NCBI GenBank assembly: GCA_951406725.2
Contig: OX597822.1
Span: 55,428,001-55,492,000 of the forward strand
Direction: 5' to 3'
Length of the DNA: 64,000 nucleotides
Origin: Octopus vulgaris
Lineage: Eukaryota
The translations under genes were made by a program, and so were the position numbers. Shown here piece by piece: positions 1-12,046 of the stretch (positions are counted from its first letter, which is position 1; every line of letters starts with the position of its first letter). A model generated the notes under the pieces. It was not told the origin of the DNA and did not search any database. It saw only the letters and a list, made by a program, of their open reading frames with translations.

Positions 1-1305
1 CATTTTCTGCTCTCTGGACTTCTCCTGAAGTTGGCGTATGGAGAATATCATATCGATAGTTGATCTGCTTCTAAAGCCACACTGCGATTCCGGATAGATT
101 CGAGAAGCAAGTAGTTGTAGCCTGGCCAGGATAATGCGGGCAAAGGTCTTTCCAACAGTGCTTAGAAGGGATATACCACGGTAATTGTTACAATCACCAT
201 GGTCACCTTTGTTTTTGTAAAGCGTAATAATGTTAGCATCCCGCATATCCTGAGGGACTGTACCTTCTTCCCAGCACTGACACAGAAGCTCATGAAGGTG
301 CCGAAGCAGGATGGTGTTTTTGCCGGCTTTGATGATCTCTGAGGGGATGCTGATTTTCCCGGAGCCTTATGTCTTGCTAGGGAGTCAACAGCCTTGGTGA
401 GCTCTGCTATAGATGGCGGACTGTCATGTTCGCACATGACTGGCAAGATCTTGACACTCTCGACTGCAGCCTCAGCCACTGTGGTCTCGCGTGAGTAGAG
501 ATCCTGGTAGTGCTCCACCCATCTATCCATTTGCTTGCTTTGATCCCTGATGAGATCTCCAGTAGTTGATTTCAGAGGGGCTGACTTGGTTGCGGATGGA
601 CCGAGGGCCTTCTTCAAACCGGCATACATCCCACGGGTGTCGCCCCTGTCAGCAGCTGATTGGATACTCTGACAGATTTCCTGCCAATACCTATTTGCAC
701 AGCGTCTGGCTGTCAGTTGGGTTTTATTTCGTGCCTTTCTGAGTTCTTCGAGTGACTTTGTAGAAGAGTCACTCTTGTATTGCACCAGAGCTGCACGCTT
801 TGCTTCGATAACTGGCTCCAGCTCTGAGAGCCCAGCATTGAACCAATCTGGGTTTTGCCTTTCTCTCATGCCGAAAGTATCCATTGATGTCGTATACAAG
901 GCTTCCCTGATACAGTCCCACCTACTTTCAGCAGAGGAGGTTGGGCAGCTACTGAGGGCAACCTTGATAGAAGCAGCAAAACATTTTGGCGGTGTTGATG
1001 CGTGGTCGGCCCACTTTCTTGGAGCGATGGACATTTTTAGGCAGAATCCTCACCCTACTTCTAATTAGTGAGTGGTCTGTGTCACAATCCGCCCTGTGGT
1101 TACTGCGGGTCAATAGAGTAGAATTCAGAAAGGATCTCCGTGTAATGATGAGATCCAGCTGATGCCAGTGGTGAGATCTTGGATGTCTCCAGGATGCCTT
1201 GTGGGATGGCTTGTTGATAAAGAATGTGTTTGTGATGCACAGGTTGTGGTATGTGCAGAATTCGAGTAGTCTCTGACCATTGTCATTGATGTTGCCAATA
1301 CCAAT
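1..1305 (-). mobile_element. RTE-clade LINE fragment (APE endonuclease C-terminus, linker, start of RT), frameshifted
   Basis: ORFs 949..1341 (NGQRLLEFC..NTFF..WRHPRSHHWHQLD..DCDTDHSL) and 162..1034 (RW.EHY..L, KAPG); an RT N-terminal KNKGD..CNNYRGISL motif lies in another frame near 165-220; cut by (TA)n at about 1305. Confidence 0.9.
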
Positions 1306-1335
1306 TATACATATATATATGTATATATATATATT

Positions 1336-1367
<32 letters not shown>

Positions 1368-1397
1368 CATAAGATCATGTATATATATATATTATAC

Positions 1398-1428
<31 letters not shown>

Positions 1429-1481
1429 TATCATAAGATCATATATATATGTATATATATATATATTATATATATATATGC

Positions 1482-1512
<31 letters not shown>

Positions 1513-1930
1513 GTATATAGCAAAATCTGTATTCCAAAAGCGAAAGCTAGGTTTCTTCGAAGACAGAAGATACATCTACGTTGAAGATGTATTCTCCCTT
1601 TTCAAGCTAAGTGGAATACTGCTTACAAGCTTGCTACGGACATTTAGATCATACTTAAAGAAAGGTCGAGTCTTCTCCATTCGATAGAACCAGCATTCAC
1701 ACGAGTACGAGCGGTCTCAACGCTAAAGATAGCAGCTATATTCCCCTCTAATCACACCCCGTTGTTTTAAAAAGGCCAAACTGTATAATCGAGGTCTGAT
1801 ACGAAACGGATATGACTGGGACGCCTTGATCATAGCGAATTCTATTCGCTCTGAGCTGATGTAGTTCATTAAAAAATCGAGTGTCTACCAACACCTCTAT
1901 CTTGTCTACCACTACTACACCTCCTCTGAA

Positions 1931-1994
<64 letters not shown>

Positions 1995-2298
1995 GTCTAT
2001 ATATATATATATATATATGTATATGCAAATATATATATATATGTATATATATATATTTGCATATACATATATTATATATATATATATAATAATTCTCTAA
2101 AAGAGATATAGACAGAAACTGCTCGATAACATAAGGGACTAAAGCCATCTGAATATGGCTAGGGACAGGGCAGGGTGGTGGGGGTGTTACTGTTGCATTT
2201 AGCCCCAGGCGAACATCGACGTCGCCAGATAGGCTTGACACCATCACGGTGTCCTTTAACCTGCAAAGGGAGATAATTCCCCGATGAAGCGGAAACCA

Positions 2299-2344
2299 CA
2301 CACGGACCATGGTTTCAAGGTGTATTGCCTATCGTCAACGTGTG
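2299..2344 (-). ncRNA. Minimal type I hammerhead ribozyme motif (C3U variant)
   Basis: Reverse complement reads CACACG-UUGACGA-UAGG caauaca CCUU-GAAA-CCAUGG-UC-CGUGUG. Confidence 0.75.
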
Positions 2345-2908
2345 GTAGGCCTCCGCTTCCTCGACGAACTCTTACTCTGCAGGATATTCATATATAGATT
2401 TTCAAGCAAAATACATTTGCTGATTTCGAAAATCTGTTCGACAGCAATAATAATTCTCTAAAAGAGATATAGACAGTAACTGCTCGATAACATAAGGGAC
2501 TAAAGCCATCTGAATATGGCTAGGGACAGGGCAGGGTGGTGGGGGTGTTACTGTTGCATTTAGCCCCAGGCGAACGAAACCATGGTCCGTGTGTGGTTTC
2601 CGCTTCATCGGGGAATTATCTCCCTTTGCAGGTTAAAGGACACCGTGATGGTGTCAAGCCTATCTGGCGACGTCGATGTTCGCCTGGGGCTAAATGCAAC
2701 AGTAACACCCCCACCACCCTGCCCTGTCCCTAGCCATATTCAGATGGCTTTAGTCCCTTATGTTATCGAGCAGTTACTGTCTATATCTCTTTTAGAGAAT
2801 TATTATTGCTGTCGAACAGATTTTCGAAATCAGCAAATGTATTTTGCTTGAAAATCTATATATGAATATCCTGCAGAGTGAGATTTCGTCGAGGAAGCGG
2901 AGGCCTAC

Positions 2909-2954
2909 CACACGTTGACGATAGGCAATACACCTTGAAACCATGGTCCGTGTG
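2909..2954 (+). ncRNA. Minimal type I hammerhead ribozyme motif (C3U variant)
   Basis: Stem I CACACG/CGTGTG (extends via GAAGCGGA/TCCGCTTC), core TTGACGA 2915-2921, stem II AGG/CCT, GAAA 2937-2940, palindromic stem III CCATGG, GTC cleavage triplet ending at 2948. Confidence 0.75.
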
Positions 2955-3123
2955 TGGTTTCCGCTTCATCGGGGAATTATTTCCCTTTGCAGGTTAAAGG
3001 ACACCGTGATGGTGTCAAGCCTATCTGGCGACGTCGATGTTCGCCTGGGGCTAAATGCAACAGTAACACCCCCATCACCCTGCCCTGTCCCTAGCCATAT
3101 TCAGATGGCTTTAGTCCCTTATG

Positions 3124-3167
<44 letters not shown>

Positions 3168-3624
3168 TTCAGAGGAGGTGTAGTAGTGGTAGACAAGATA
3201 GAGGTGTTGGTAGACACTCGATTTTTTAATGAACTACATCAGTTCAGAGCGAATAGAATTCGCTATGATCAAGGCGTCCCAGTCATATCCGTTTCGTATT
3301 AGACCTCGATTATACAGTGTGGCCTTTTTAAAACAACGGGGTGTGATTAGAGGGGAATATAGCTGCTATCTTTAGCGTTGAGACCGCTCGTACTCGTGTG
3401 AATGCTGGTTCTATCGAATGGAGAAGACTCGACCTTTCTTTAAGTATGATCTAAATGTCCGTAGCAAGCTTGTAAGCAGTATTCCACTTAGCTTAAAAAG
3501 GGCGAATACATCTTCAACGTAGAAGTATCTTCTGTCTTTGAAGAAACCTAGCTTTCGCTTTTGGAATACAGATTTTGCTATTGTGCAAAATTGCGAAATA
3601 TATGTATGTATGCATGTGTGTGTG

Positions 3625-4471: not shown

Positions 4472-5249
4472 TAATTTAGCATGCTGTTCGTGACAGTATG
4501 TTTAATCCGTTAGGCAGAAATGGTGAATGACGGATTCCGTTCATCTTATAGACAAAGACGGAGAGTAATTAAGGAAAATAAGACGAAAAATTTAAATAGA
4601 ATATAAAATAAAGTAAAACATTATTTGCATTTGTACCCACATATAATTACATCTGTACCCACACTTACTGACCTGTGTTCACACATACTCACCCATATGC
4701 GGTTAAATTGATGTTATTAATCTCTTTGATGAACATCCTGCCATTCTTGTATCACACCAACACAAACATCGGACAACTTAGAAAATACTGTGAGACAGAC
4801 AACCCCACCAGCGCAATAACTGTTAACACAGGTAAAGCTATCACCACCAGCACAACCAACACCCCCACAACCCTACCACACCCCCAAAAGAAAGCTTTCG
4901 GAAGGGTCTGTTAAATTCTCAGCCCCCGAATTTTGTGCTAGTGAGGAGAGCAAATAAAGATCTCAAGGCCTTCATAGATCCAAATAAAGAAATTGAGAGA
5001 GATTGAGCAATTCATGACACCAGCATCCTTAAAGTGCCGGAAGAGCTGTTGTTAGTGCATATACCACTAACAACATACAAAAACATTCGGTAGGTCTTCT
5101 GATACGACGTGGGGACCCCCAATATAATAGCCGCCAATAGACTTTTAAAGGGGTTCCTAGAGAAATTCCAACCAGATTCGGAGGCCACCAACAGCACCGG
5201 CAGGGTAAGTAACCTGGCTCTTTTTCTTTCTTGCAGTTCTACCGGCCGC

Positions 5250-7060
5250 TATGAGATTGATTAGAGTGGGCTGTGTAATTATTCGTGGCTTGGGGTCTCC
5301 TGCTCAACGACCTCAGGTCATAATCTATGGATGTGACAGCCGTCAGCGAAACCAGAATTTTCGACACATGCAATCTGGCCCCAATTTTCGGCGATTTTGA
5401 GATCTACACATCTCTTAGTCAGCTTGGAATGGTGGTGGTGGAGTGCAGAGTGACTGTGTTGCTTAGGAAAGGCCTGGATCTCCAAGTACGGACGACCCTT
5501 CTGGATCTGGAAGGTAAATTGGTGGTCCCGGATATAATAGCGAAGTCGGTGCTTTCAGACTAGTCGCTGTGTACGTCCCAACTGGGGCGGAGCAGCCAGA
5601 TTTCTTCAGATGTTTGGAGGTTTTCTTCGGAACATCTTGCTCTTTAGTTCTAATGGGCGATTGAAACGCCATTTTGGATGCACAACTGAATAGGGTGGGA
5701 CTAGACGATAGAAGACGGGAGTACAAAAGTTTCACAAACCTGCTCGTTCCTTTCGAATTGGCTGACAGATATCGACTGGATTTCCCGAATGCGCCAATGT
5801 GGACATGGGCAAACAACACCGGGTCTTCCCGATCATTTTTAGGTAGAATATTTTGTAGGCCAGTAGATAGAAGCAGCATAGGTTGTCCACAGTTTATAGT
5901 CGTCAACTACACAGACCACAAATTTGTGATCTGCACGGTTGACATAAATAAAATCCACAGGTAAGGCCCCGAATACTCGAAGCTGAATGCGTCTTTCCCA
6001 GCGCGTCAAGCATTCAGAAACCATTTAGTTCAGCGTAAGTTTTCGGGTGCAATCGTCAACAACCGTTGGTGGATAGCCCTGAAAAGGGCTATTGGAGTAG
6101 TGGCGGTAGGATTTAGTAAGGAAATAACTATAGAGGAATCTTGGATAGAGGGAGTGCTAGTTAGGAAGCTAGAAGAGGCATTTAGGAGAAGCATAGCCAC
6201 TGACGCGCTGCCGGTGAAACTGGCTCTTGATCAATTCTTCAATGCCAAGCACGAAGGTTGCATTGTCAGAGTTAGCGCGCATCGGATGGCAAAGGTGCAA
6301 CGTGGAAACAAAGTAACAATTCAGTCTTTGACGGGCCGGGACAGGCGCATGCTACACAAATCCAAACAGATGTGCAAGGGATTTTAGTGGCACTCCACCG
6401 AATTGTTCGGGACACAAATTATAAGATTTTGGCAAAGATGTTAGCTAAGAAGTTGGCGCTTGTCGTCGATAAGCTGATGGGTGATGCGTAGACATGCGTT
6501 ATCCTGACTAAATCTATCCACAACAACCTCCACCTCACATGCTACATCATAGAGAAAGTAGGGAAGGAACCTAGCATTTGGTGGGTTTTTGATCAATTTG
6601 GATCAATAAAAAACTTTTGACAGGGTCGACTATCAATACTTGTAGGCTGTCCTCGCGGCGGCCGGATTCGATCCCGTTTCAGAAGGTGGATCGCTGTAAT
6701 GTACAGCGACATTTGTTCGGTGGTGAAAGTAAACGGCCATTTATCGGAATAGTTTTTCATTGCTCGCTCGGTCCGCCAAGGATACTGACTCTCCCCGCGT
6801 CTGTACGTGTTGGATCACGAGCCATTACTAAGGAAGTTGATATTTCGAGGGACATTCGACGTGATCTGAGATGCGGAAGGTTCGTGTCGGCTTATGCGGA
6901 CGACGTCACCGTAATAGTATCGAACAGCTTGGAAATAGAGGTGATTGGCTCTACTTTAAAAGAGTACAAAGCGGTGACAGGAGAAAAGATTAATCAGAAG
7001 TCGGTGGGCCTGCATCTCGGTACCTGGACAGACAGGTCCATACCAACTGACAGCGTTTCT
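5250..7060 (+). mobile_element. Degenerate Tx1/L1-clade LINE (endonuclease and RT remnants)
   Basis: DVTAVSET, GD.NA, TDH endonuclease motifs; DQ.K.FDRVD, VRQG..LSP and AYADDVT RT motifs across frames; many stops. Confidence 0.85.
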
Positions 7061-10454: not shown

Positions 10455-12046
10455 AATGGAATACATTACCTACTTCAGAAATGAGACGTAAGAAATTCAT
10501 ACTTTAGCCTACTGGATAGGTGTGTTTTAGTCTCAGGACAACTCTGTCCAGCCAACCGTATTGAAGGCAGGTAGTCGAACAAACGACAAGATGTTTCTCA
10601 CGAATCTGTTGTAATTCCTGATTATACACTACATTTGCCAAGCTGACAGACATATTTCTCTTTCCTTCATAAAGTAAATGAATTGTATGGGGTGAAACTG
10701 TGTGACTGACAATTTTTGTACGGTTGCTGTTGCTATTCTTATTTAACCATAGGTTAGCTCTGATTGAGTATTGTTATTGTTAATGGAGGTCCAGCTATAA
10801 CTACGCTGCATGTATATCAGTGACCATATTGTCCAATGTGTCCTTCTCTTTACGACAATAGTGTGTGAGTTGAAGGAAATTTATCGGCCAAGTAGAGGCT
10901 TACTTATTGGCACCCTATGGTATCTATAAAATAGGCGAGAAAAGTGGAATCTGTCATAGCGCATTGTCCCTCTGCAATTATTATAGGTGATGCATATCTG
11001 GGTATGTGTGGAGGCGCGTGGCTTAGTGGTTAGGTTGTCAGCATCATGATCGTAAGATTGTGGTTTCGATTCCTGGACCGGTTGACGCGTTGTGTTCTTG
11101 AGTAAAACACTTCATTTCACGTTGCTCCAGTCCACTCAGCTGGCAAAAATGAGTAATGCTGGGATGGACTGGTGTCCCATCCAGCTGGGGAACACATACG
11201 CCATTGGAACCGGGAAACTGAGCCCATGAGCCTGGCTAGGCTTTAAAAGGGCGCATTTATTATCTATTTATATCTGCGTATAGGCATAGTATGGCCGAAT
11301 GGTTAAGAACTATTCTTCGCAACCACGGGTTCTTGAGTTCGATGTTGCTGCAAGGCATCTTTGGAAAATAGCATTTTCTATAGCAATGAATCGATTCATT
11401 TATTGAGAGCAAAACTGCGTAAAAGGGAAACTATACTGAAGCTTGCCAGTGGATATTCAAAAGATATCGCCGAGTTACACAATGTGCTACACTGATTGTG
11501 TTTGAGAAATACGATAAGGGTGCACGTATCTATGGAATGCTCAGCTAATTAAACGTTAATTCCGGGGCAAGTAATTCAGTTGCATCATCCTCGTCGAAAG
11601 ACGGAGATCCAAAGCCACCACCACCACCACCACTACCACCACCGCATCTAGACATTATGAGGTGGGGGTTAGTGAAGTTATTTAAGTCACAGCTGCTTTT
11701 ATGCATAAGTGTTTTGAATGTTTGTCTGGGCTGCGAGGTGCAGAGAATGTTTTAAGAATGTGTCATAGAGTTGTATACATGTGTGTGCTTGTCAGTCACA
11801 CAGCTTCACCACATACAATTCATTTACTGTATGAAGGAAAGAGAAATATGTCTGTCAGCTTGGCAAATGTAGCGTATAATCAGGAATGACAATAGATTCG
11901 TGAAAAACATCTTGTCGTTTGTTCGACTACCTGCCTTCAATACGGTTGACTGGACAGAGTTGTCCTGAAACTAAAACACGCCTATCCAGTAGGCTAAAGT
12001 ATGAATTTCTTACGTCTCATTTCTGAAGTAGGTAATGTATTCCATT
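10455..12046. repeat. Inverted duplication, 258-bp arms (10455-10712 / 11789-12046)
   Basis: Arms are reverse complements with scattered substitutions; about 1.1 kb spacer contains SINEs. Confidence 0.95.
11007..11268 (+). mobile_element. tRNA-derived SINE
   Basis: A-box TGGCTTAGTGG, B-box GGTTTCGATTCC, (TTTA)-like tail, approximate TSD ATATCTG.GTAT; near-identical copy at 52220. Confidence 0.85.

What the first reader, a model, noticed from the sequence alone, without database searches (positions are those of the whole stretch)
2086..3127. 361-bp HHR-bearing tandem unit inserted back-to-back, with the inversion breakpoint inside the ribozyme
Seen: partial-tandem arms in opposite orientation; each full unit has a minimal type I HHR with U at position 3 and a palindromic stem III (CCAUGG); the right arm starts exactly at the HHR GAAAC (2576). 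The unit has many local hairpins (GACACC/GGTGTC, AGCCAT/ATGGCT, GGCGA/TCGCC, CCTGCA/TGCAGG). Established: minimal type I HHRs with palindromic stem III work as dimers in tandem repeats and typify Penelope-like elements and animal non-LTR retrozymes. Inference: reverse transcription of a 361-nt circular or multimeric RNA.
Basis: partly seen in the sequence, partly recalled or inferred. Interest (0 to 1): 0.72.

Follow-up and report, generated by a model that had tools for sequence, protein, structure and literature searches.

The report
Two-armed hammerhead retrozyme insertion
This is one young copy of a widely scattered 361-base non-coding repeat that carries a predicted self-cutting RNA motif and lands in TA repeats as two back-to-back arms, one ending at each of two fixed sites, a footprint likely made by a Penelope-type retrotransposon enzyme copying one, probably ring-shaped, RNA twice; the break inside the ribozyme is chance.

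Summary
In detail: a 361-nt unit as two head-to-head arms (2086-2575 minus, 2576-3127 plus) in (TA)n, each with one complete type I hammerhead (HHR). It belongs to a young dispersed family (1,400 exact HHR-core matches). Of 69 other loci, 52 are head-to-head. In 46 of those 52, one arm ends at unit 186-192 and the other at 229-237; none has two like ends. This is the Penelope 'tail' footprint. Both arms share subfamily alleles (1335 of 1355 comparisons), and most run past the cleavage site, so the template was one uncut, probably circular RNA. The breakpoint inside the ribozyme is chance (14 of 121 inner ends, 16 expected). The HHR is canonical in shape, not minimal. Its palindromic stem III covaries across three sister families, but the core reads CC or UU at positions 3-4, never CU. 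No partner pLTR was found; cleavage and circles are untested. Peculiar to this locus: an inverted duplicate of 417 nt of unique flank. Earlier scan notes reported the same end rule and probably this family on other DNA.

The parts
1306..1519 (.). Outer (TA)n tract, joined to the duplicated flank through a TAT microhomology
1517..1933 (-). Inverted duplicate of the downstream unique flank (7 differences in 417 nt); specific to this locus
   Evidence: no such duplication at 52 other inverted loci
1934..2088 (.). (TA)n target tract, left; contains a small internal fold-back (TGCAAA...TTTGCA)
2086..2575 (-). Left arm, 490 nt (u103-361 + u1-231), ending at the long 3' site B
2086..2125 (-). One-sided 'tail' (u192-231), the stretch between the two fixed 3' ends
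   Evidence: u191-235 is 80% identical (36 of 45) to the same stretch of sister family 2
2298..2345 (-). Complete type I HHR motif of the left arm; predicted cut after 2305
2575..2576 (.). Blunt head-to-head junction of the two arms' 5' ends (u103 / u1)
   Evidence: inner ends are scattered in the family
2576..3127 (+). Right arm, 552 nt (u1-361 + u1-191), ending at the short 3' site A
2576..2594 (+). 3' half of an HHR (GAAAC-CAUG-GUC plus stem I 3' strand) left by 5' truncation
2732..2749 (+). Hairpin AGCCAT/ATGGCT just upstream of site A; kept in all three sister families (second copy 3093-3110)
2908..2955 (+). Complete type I HHR motif: core UUGACGA 2915-2921, stem II 2922-2936, palindrome ACCAUGGU 2940-2947, predicted cut after C2948
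3125..3164 (.). (TA)n target tract, right
3165..3581 (+). Unique flank, presumed original copy; only these two matches in the genome search

Best explanation
The locus is one copy of a young, protein-less 361-nt hammerhead repeat of the non-LTR retrozyme kind, likely written into a (TA)n tract by a Penelope-like RT/GIY-YIG enzyme acting in trans. Inferred steps: tandem transcripts are cut by dimeric hammerheads and ligated into a 361-nt circle. The enzyme makes a staggered cut of about 10 bp in (TA)n. Both 3' ends prime on the same RNA, one at site A (u188-191) and the other at site B (u229-236), about 44 nt further 3'. Each cDNA runs on through the ligated cleavage site and stops at a random point, and the two cDNA ends are joined in the middle. 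Shown by the sequences: head-to-head arms, the one-A-one-B rule, the TA target, about 10-bp target duplications where visible, shared alleles in both arms, and random inner ends. This copy is probably a dead end as an RNA source: each strand has only one whole HHR, and a read-through transcript would fold into about 450 bp of double strand. The inverted flank duplicate is likely a separate fold-back repair at the TA tract.
For: Dispersed and young: 1,419 first-look candidates, best full-length units 96-100% identical; 1,400 exact core matches. Of 69 loci (70 examined, 1 degenerate dropped), 52 are head-to-head, 17 single-armed, 0 tail-to-tail. 46 of 52 are A+B, 0 A+A, 0 B+B, 6 have one end elsewhere. 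108 of 114 fixed ends run into (TA)n. The rule holds in the 30 loci picked by position on one contig: 20 A+B of 23 inverted, the other 3 with one odd end. Target duplications of about 8-12 nt are visible at 6 loci where the target is not pure TA; A. vaga PLEs have 8-10 bp (PMC3846280, passages). The tail equals the stretch between two RT start sites in a purified PLE, which nicks both strands of AT-rich DNA and is predicted to be a dimer (PMC11167929). Inverted 5'-truncated copies, a one-sided 30-40-bp tail and (TA)n bias are PLE hallmarks (PMC8557442). Three Neptune-type RT/GIY-YIG families in this genome end in (TA)n; two show two clear 3' ends 30-35 nt apart, and one has many intact 781-aa frames. 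One template: arms agree at 1335 of 1355 diagnostic comparisons against 67% for random pairs, and 6 locus-private alleles occur in both arms. Uncut template: 102 of 114 arms pass the cleavage site, and arms reach 3,281 nt. HHR structure is kept: four different 8-nt stem III palindromes across three families about 60-75% alike, compensatory changes in stems I and II, 95% of cells paired. Rare variants are fewer in the HHR than in the rest of the unit (0.23% vs 0.63%).
Against: No autonomous partner was identified. No pLTR homologous to the unit turned up in 89 PLE-bearing loci, and the tail's likeness to the 781-aa family's tail is not significant (p 0.28-0.62). The core is never canonical in this family: CU 0 matches, UU 149, of about 1,400. 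U4C lowers activity in vitro (PMC3088659), and 8 of 9 Xenopus dimers tested did not cleave (bioRxiv 2026.07.22.740005), so cleavage cannot be assumed. In vitro the PLE showed no strand difference in start site and did not need its HHR. Most private alleles lie in one arm only (163 vs 6), this locus's own arms differ at one polymorphic site (u309), and L048 has discordant arms. Allele sharing would also follow from a homogeneous multimeric transcript or later gene conversion. The covariation counts are not corrected for relatedness. 39 of the 69 loci were chosen by similarity to this copy.
Confidence: 0.78

Rival explanations
1. Same Penelope-type double priming, but the template is a linear uncut multimeric read-through transcript of a tandem array. 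The hammerhead is a weak or vestigial passenger and no circle is involved.
For: The core is non-canonical in every copy examined. The PAc element inserts from unprocessed RNA and HHR mutants do not affect insertion. Long arrays that could serve as sources exist.
Against: No pile-up of 5' ends at any start point. Some locus-private alleles sit in every unit of both arms, e.g. 5 of 5 in L014 and 4 of 4 in L146. The unit folds as a closed rod-like circle (z -5.9). The palindrome and stems are kept by compensatory change.
Confidence: 0.3
2. The unit is simply the pseudo-LTR of an autonomous Penelope-like element not yet found, and the locus is a pair of 5'-truncated stubs.
For: Anatomy identical to PLE inverted insertions. 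Only 150 of 6,136 GIY-YIG candidates were scored.
Against: Perfect head-to-tail arrays of up to about 9 units with no ORF between units. No PLE protein match in 900 nt upstream of the 17 single arms. Three sister families show the same ORF-less unit.
Confidence: 0.08
3. The inversion is a DNA-level or self-primed fold-back of one cDNA, triggered at the palindrome or the cut site of the ribozyme.
For: A few junctions are near-symmetric or use short palindromes (L010, L139, L142). This locus has a separate fold-back-like duplication of its flank.
Against: Most junctions join two unrelated unit positions with 0-5 nt overlap. Inner ends are not enriched in the HHR. A fold-back of one cDNA gives no reason for the second arm to stop at the other fixed site in 46 of 46 classifiable loci.
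Confidence: 0.06
4. A LINE (RTE or L1/Tx1) mobilises the unit like a SINE, with L1-style twin priming (mechanism recalled, not from a call).
For: LINE remnants lie nearby (window 1-1290 and about 5200 onward). Twin priming gives the same head-to-head polarity.
Against: No poly(A) or simple-repeat tail, two fixed internal starts, and the same footprint as the genome's own PLEs.
Confidence: 0.03

Closest known systems
Metazoan non-LTR retrozymes (Cervera and de la Pena 2020, PMC7229834, parts 2-4 of 6 read; Li, Clavereau and Pollet, bioRxiv 10.64898/2026.07.22.740005, parts 1-3 of 5 read)
   Same: ORF-less unit of 150-450 nt in tandem, GC under 50% (45.7%), type I HHR with weak palindromic helix III and U-U at the base of helix II like axolotl HHR_Amex2, highly self-paired predicted circle, coexisting PLEs.
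   Different: Copies are mostly two-armed head-to-head insertions in (TA)n with two fixed 3' ends ('inverted' does not occur in PMC7229834). The core is CCGANGA or UUGANGA in all copies examined. No homologous pLTR was found. Cleavage and circles are not shown.
Insertions of endonuclease-bearing Penelope-like elements: Neptune, Penelope/Poseidon, Hydra, Naiad (PMC8557442 passages and section 11; PMC3846280 passages; PMC11167929 parts 1-2 of 4)
   Same: Partial tandems, an inverted 5'-truncated copy head-to-head, a 30-45-nt tail at one end, AT-rich or (TA)n target, 8-10-bp target duplication, HHR in the repeat.
   Different: No RT/GIY-YIG ORF, so non-autonomous. The repeat unit is the whole element. 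The one-short-one-long rule is near strict here, whereas the papers say 'often' or 'optionally' at one end.
Canonical versus minimal type I hammerheads (PMC4209133 parts 1-2 of 4; PMC3088659 section 8 and passages)
   Same: Helix I about 6 bp, short helix III with palindromic loop, predicted dimer mode. U4C and the U10.1-U11.1 mismatch are known natural variants.
   Different: Not the min-HHR of PLEs (helix III absent, long helix II). U3 with G8 kept (a wobble, not the U3-A8 covariation those papers describe) and a CC/UU dimorphism without the canonical CU.

Membership tests
Non-LTR retrozyme | Short (150-450 bp) unit in tandem copies, low GC, no ORF, no LTR/PBS/PPT | tested here: met
   361 nt, 45.7% GC, stops in all frames; arrays up to about 9 units. 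PBS/PPT not searched explicitly.
Non-LTR retrozyme | Type I HHR in each unit | tested here: met
   182 of 190 extracted motifs align with a near-invariant core and covarying stems. The core is a variant, and Rfam gave no HHR hit.
Non-LTR retrozyme | [quoted passage not shown] | tested here: inconclusive
   Met by many family loci; not met by this locus, which has one whole HHR per strand.
Non-LTR retrozyme | Self-cleavage in vitro | not testable with these tools
   Needs a transcription assay; the variant cores make the outcome open.
Non-LTR retrozyme | Expression as monomeric circular RNA | not testable with these tools
   Only contigs were available; predicted circle z -5.9.
Penelope-like element (autonomous) | ORF with PLE RT and GIY-YIG endonuclease | tested here: not met
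   No ORF in the unit; none upstream of 17 single arms.
PLE-mobilised insertion | Head-to-head inverted 5'-truncated copy | tested here: met
   52 of 69 loci.
PLE-mobilised insertion | 30-40-nt tail at one end (two RT start sites) | tested here: met
   Ends u186-192 and u229-237 paired in 46 of 52; same ends in family 3.
PLE-mobilised insertion | AT-rich/(TA)n target and about 10-bp target duplication | tested here: met
   108 of 114 ends; duplications readable at 6 of 69 loci, hidden in pure TA elsewhere.
PLE-mobilised insertion | Sequence homology to the pLTR of an autonomous partner | tested here: inconclusive
   None in 89 loci; the PLE census is far from complete.
Minimal HHR of metazoan PLEs (PMC4209133) | Helix III reduced to the core, helix II 7-8 bp, helix I 4-5 bp | tested here: not met
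   Helix III 2 bp plus tetraloop, helix II 3 bp, helix I 6 bp plus extension.

The most novel reading that the evidence does not exclude
A dimeric Penelope-type enzyme grips a single 361-nt ribozyme circle at two fixed sites 44 nt apart and primes one cDNA from each strand of one staggered cut. Both copies roll round the ring and are joined head to head. The family's hammerhead has been detuned in two ways (CC or UU, never CU) because a stable ring retrotransposes better. This would explain both the inverted, one-tailed insertions of Penelope elements and how animal retrozymes spread.
Probability: 0.35. Interest if true: 0.75.

Novelty: new variant of a known kind. Interest (0 to 1): 0.52.

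Why it matters
That Penelope-like enzymes mobilise animal retrozymes is proposed (PMC7229834) and supported by pLTR homology in Xenopus (bioRxiv 2026.07.22.740005). How PLEs make inverted, one-tailed insertions is stated as unresolved (PMC8557442). A young, short, ORF-less family with over a thousand HHR copies gives insertion-level evidence: a near-strict pairing of the two RT start sites, and one template for both arms. It also supplies a 361-nt substrate for the existing in vitro PLE assay. The CC/UU core dimorphism offers a natural test of how ribozyme strength trades off against mobility. The locus itself is an ordinary, probably inactive copy.

Tried and rejected
Rfam scans: only microsatellite-driven miRNA hits and no hammerhead model. 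Enrichment of inner ends at the HHR or cut site: none; the contig-1 subset is biased against breaks in the core because it was found with a core pattern. Partner search: GIY-YIG scan and 89 PLE-bearing loci gave no homologous pLTR. The hit in L119 was a solo copy of sister family 2, not the end of the PLE there. The Neptune RT fragment abutting family 2 in L174 led to a family with an unrelated 3' end. Tail likeness to the 781-aa family is not significant. Hybrids with PLE sequence at the cut site: not seen in 17 single arms. Hydra-clade partners could not be searched, as no sequence was in hand. RNA: no RNA holder listed. Contigs of four runs only guessed to be RNA cover the unit and mostly carry the CC core, two are 390 nt long, but contigs cannot tell circle from tandem or RNA from DNA; not used as evidence. 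Flank as a repeat, TIR or PLE remnant: 2 matches only, no protein or DNA hit among fetched loci; a Pfam scan of it was not obtained. Flank as 3' transduction: rejected because the left arm ends at B, not A, and the TA tracts differ. Order of flank duplication and insertion: unresolved (7 mutations in 834 nt vs 5 in 1042 nt, p=0.39). UU vs CC total insert length: p=0.052 on a biased sample, not claimed. Literature searches that found no description of this footprint for retrozymes; one search found nothing. Supplements were not read and may list related families.

Full report
Observation. The window holds a 361-nt unit (2576-2936; positions below are u1-u361) as two partial tandems. The right arm 2576-3127 (+) is u1-361 + u1-191, and the left arm 2086-2575 (-) is u103-361 + u1-231; they are 99% alike and join bluntly at their 5' ends. 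Both outer ends run into (TA)n. Each arm has one whole type I hammerhead motif (2908-2955 +; 2298-2345 -) with core UUGACGA, stem II closed by U-U, palindrome ACCAUGGU and a predicted cut after C2948; 2576-2594 is a 3' half motif. Rfam has no matching hammerhead model. The unit folds at z -5.2 as a linear monomer and z -5.9 as a circle, against -3.2 for the other strand. By the definitions in PMC4209133 (parts 1-2 read) the motif has the canonical metazoan layout, not the minimal one.

Family. The genome (2.8 Gb, 227 contigs) gave 1,419 first-look candidates, 40 scored, with full-length units 96-100% identical, and 1,400 exact matches to a 26-nt core pattern. I examined 70 other loci: 39 chosen by similarity and 31 from the first pattern hits on contig 1; one degenerate locus was dropped. 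Of 69, 52 are head-to-head, 17 single-armed and none tail-to-tail. Arm 3' ends fall at site A (u186-192) or site B (u229-237). 46 of 52 inverted loci have one of each, none has two alike, and 6 have one end elsewhere. 108 of 114 fixed ends are followed by (TA)n. In the contig-1 subset 20 of 23 are A+B. Target duplications of about 10 nt are readable at 6 loci with impure targets.

The breakpoint. Inner ends are scattered round the unit. 14 of 121 fall in the 48-nt hammerhead (16.1 expected) and 4 within 3 nt of the cut site (2.3 expected). Here the right arm begins 12 nt upstream of a cut site, so that site was uncut in the template.

Template. 102 of 114 fixed-end arms run past the cleavage site and 91 of 121 exceed one unit, so a linear monomer is excluded. 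The two arms of a locus agree at 1335 of 1355 comparisons at subfamily-diagnostic sites, against 67% for shuffled pairs (this count includes the window's locus). Six locus-private alleles occur in both arms, some in every unit, while 163 occur in one arm only and L048 is discordant. This favours one RNA read twice, most simply a ring. A homogeneous multimer or later conversion is not excluded.

Ribozyme. In 182 motifs the core positions 3-4 read CC (127) or UU (55). Genome-wide, with exact flanks, UU has 149 matches and CU none, so CC is inferred to be most of the 1,400. Two sister families were found. Family 2 (2,645 candidates) has the canonical CUGAUGA. Family 3 (566 pattern matches) has UUGACGA, the same two ends and the same head-to-head form. 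Stem III is always a palindrome but differs: ACCAUGGU and ACCUAGGU, ACUCGAGU, ACUAUAGU. On 46 of 49 distinct motifs (3 cut by junctions left out) 95% of cells pair and 6 of 13 pairs change on both sides, including both palindrome pairs (not corrected for relatedness). This fits selection for dimer-mode folding. Activity is open: U4C lowers activity but is tolerated in a viroid (PMC3088659), and 8 of 9 Xenopus dimers failed to cut.

Mechanism. The footprint matches endonuclease-bearing Penelope-like elements: an inverted truncated copy, a 30-40-nt tail at one end and (TA)n bias (PMC8557442), with 8-10-bp duplications (PMC3846280). In a purified PLE the tail is the stretch between two internal RT start sites, both strands are nicked and extended, and the protein is predicted to be a dimer (PMC11167929). 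This genome has Neptune-type RT/GIY-YIG families ending in (TA)n, one with many intact 781-aa frames, and L119 shows the same inverted one-tailed form; the clade name rests on the zinc-finger-like linker described. I infer a double priming event: each strand of one staggered cut starts a cDNA, one at A and one at B, and the cDNAs are joined where they stop. The strict pairing means the two starts are coupled, which the in vitro work did not see. The partner was not identified. This copy probably yields no monomer RNA, having one whole ribozyme per strand and 450 nt of 99% complementarity between arms.

The flank. 1517-1933 is an inverted copy of 3165-3581 with 7 differences in 417 nt. The stretch has only these two matches in the genome, and none of 52 other inverted loci has such a duplication (its one hit was a direct repeat). 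The outer join is a TAT microhomology into a TA tract. In one public run a 440-nt contig stops exactly at 3581, a weak hint that both copies exist in reads. A fold-back from a break in the self-complementary TA tract is the likely cause (inference; TA cruciform fragility seen only in a search listing). Its order relative to the insertion is unresolved.

Comparison and verdict. It works like, and meets the testable features of, a non-LTR retrozyme (PMC7229834), and its insertions are PLE-type. It is not an autonomous PLE and its ribozyme is not a min-HHR. Searches found no paper describing this footprint for retrozymes; supplements were not read. Earlier notes of this scan describe the same end rule and probably this family elsewhere and call the host a cephalopod, which I did not test; they are not independent support. 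Verdict: a new variant of a known kind. The locus is ordinary, and the family-level rule is mechanistically useful and testable. Interest 0.52.

Noticed in passing
window 10455-10712 and 11789-12046: A second local inverted duplication (258 nt, 96%) around a 1.08-kb spacer; could be terminal repeats of a DNA element or another fold-back event.
   Followed up: no
window 1-1290 (continues in L152 6600-9290): Decayed LINE on the minus strand, resembling the RT fragment translated in L222; clade label RTE is recalled.
   Followed up: no
window about 5200-6000: Decayed endonuclease-like region of a LINE, read by eye and labelled L1/Tx1-like from recall; earlier scan notes report Tx1 LINEs targeting retrozymes.
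   Followed up: no
L152 5000-6015 (about 2-3 kb upstream of the window): Truncated Penelope-like RT fragment on the minus strand, read by eye, next to a TA tract.
   Followed up: no
L106-L115: Young Neptune-type family with identical-length 781-aa RT/GIY-YIG frames, an upstream 220-479-aa open frame, two 3' ends and a candidate hammerhead with a U3-A8 core and an AACAUGUU palindrome.
   Followed up: partly
L119 2295-5480: Neptune-type insertion with inverted pLTR and one-sided AC-rich tail in (TA)n; its hammerhead core reads CCGAAGA here and CUGAAGA in L117 and L123.
   Followed up: partly
L174 1000-1735: A family-2 arm whose 5' end abuts a co-oriented Neptune RT fragment: template switch or insertion into a PLE copy.
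   Followed up: partly
L221-L224: A 1.38-kb segment containing a family-3 arm and a LINE fragment, tandemly amplified at least four times.
   Followed up: no
L022, L045, L046, L129: Retrozyme copies beside 3' ends of the 574-aa Neptune family in shared TA tracts.
   Followed up: no
L048: The two arms carry different subfamily alleles, a possible two-template event.
   Followed up: no
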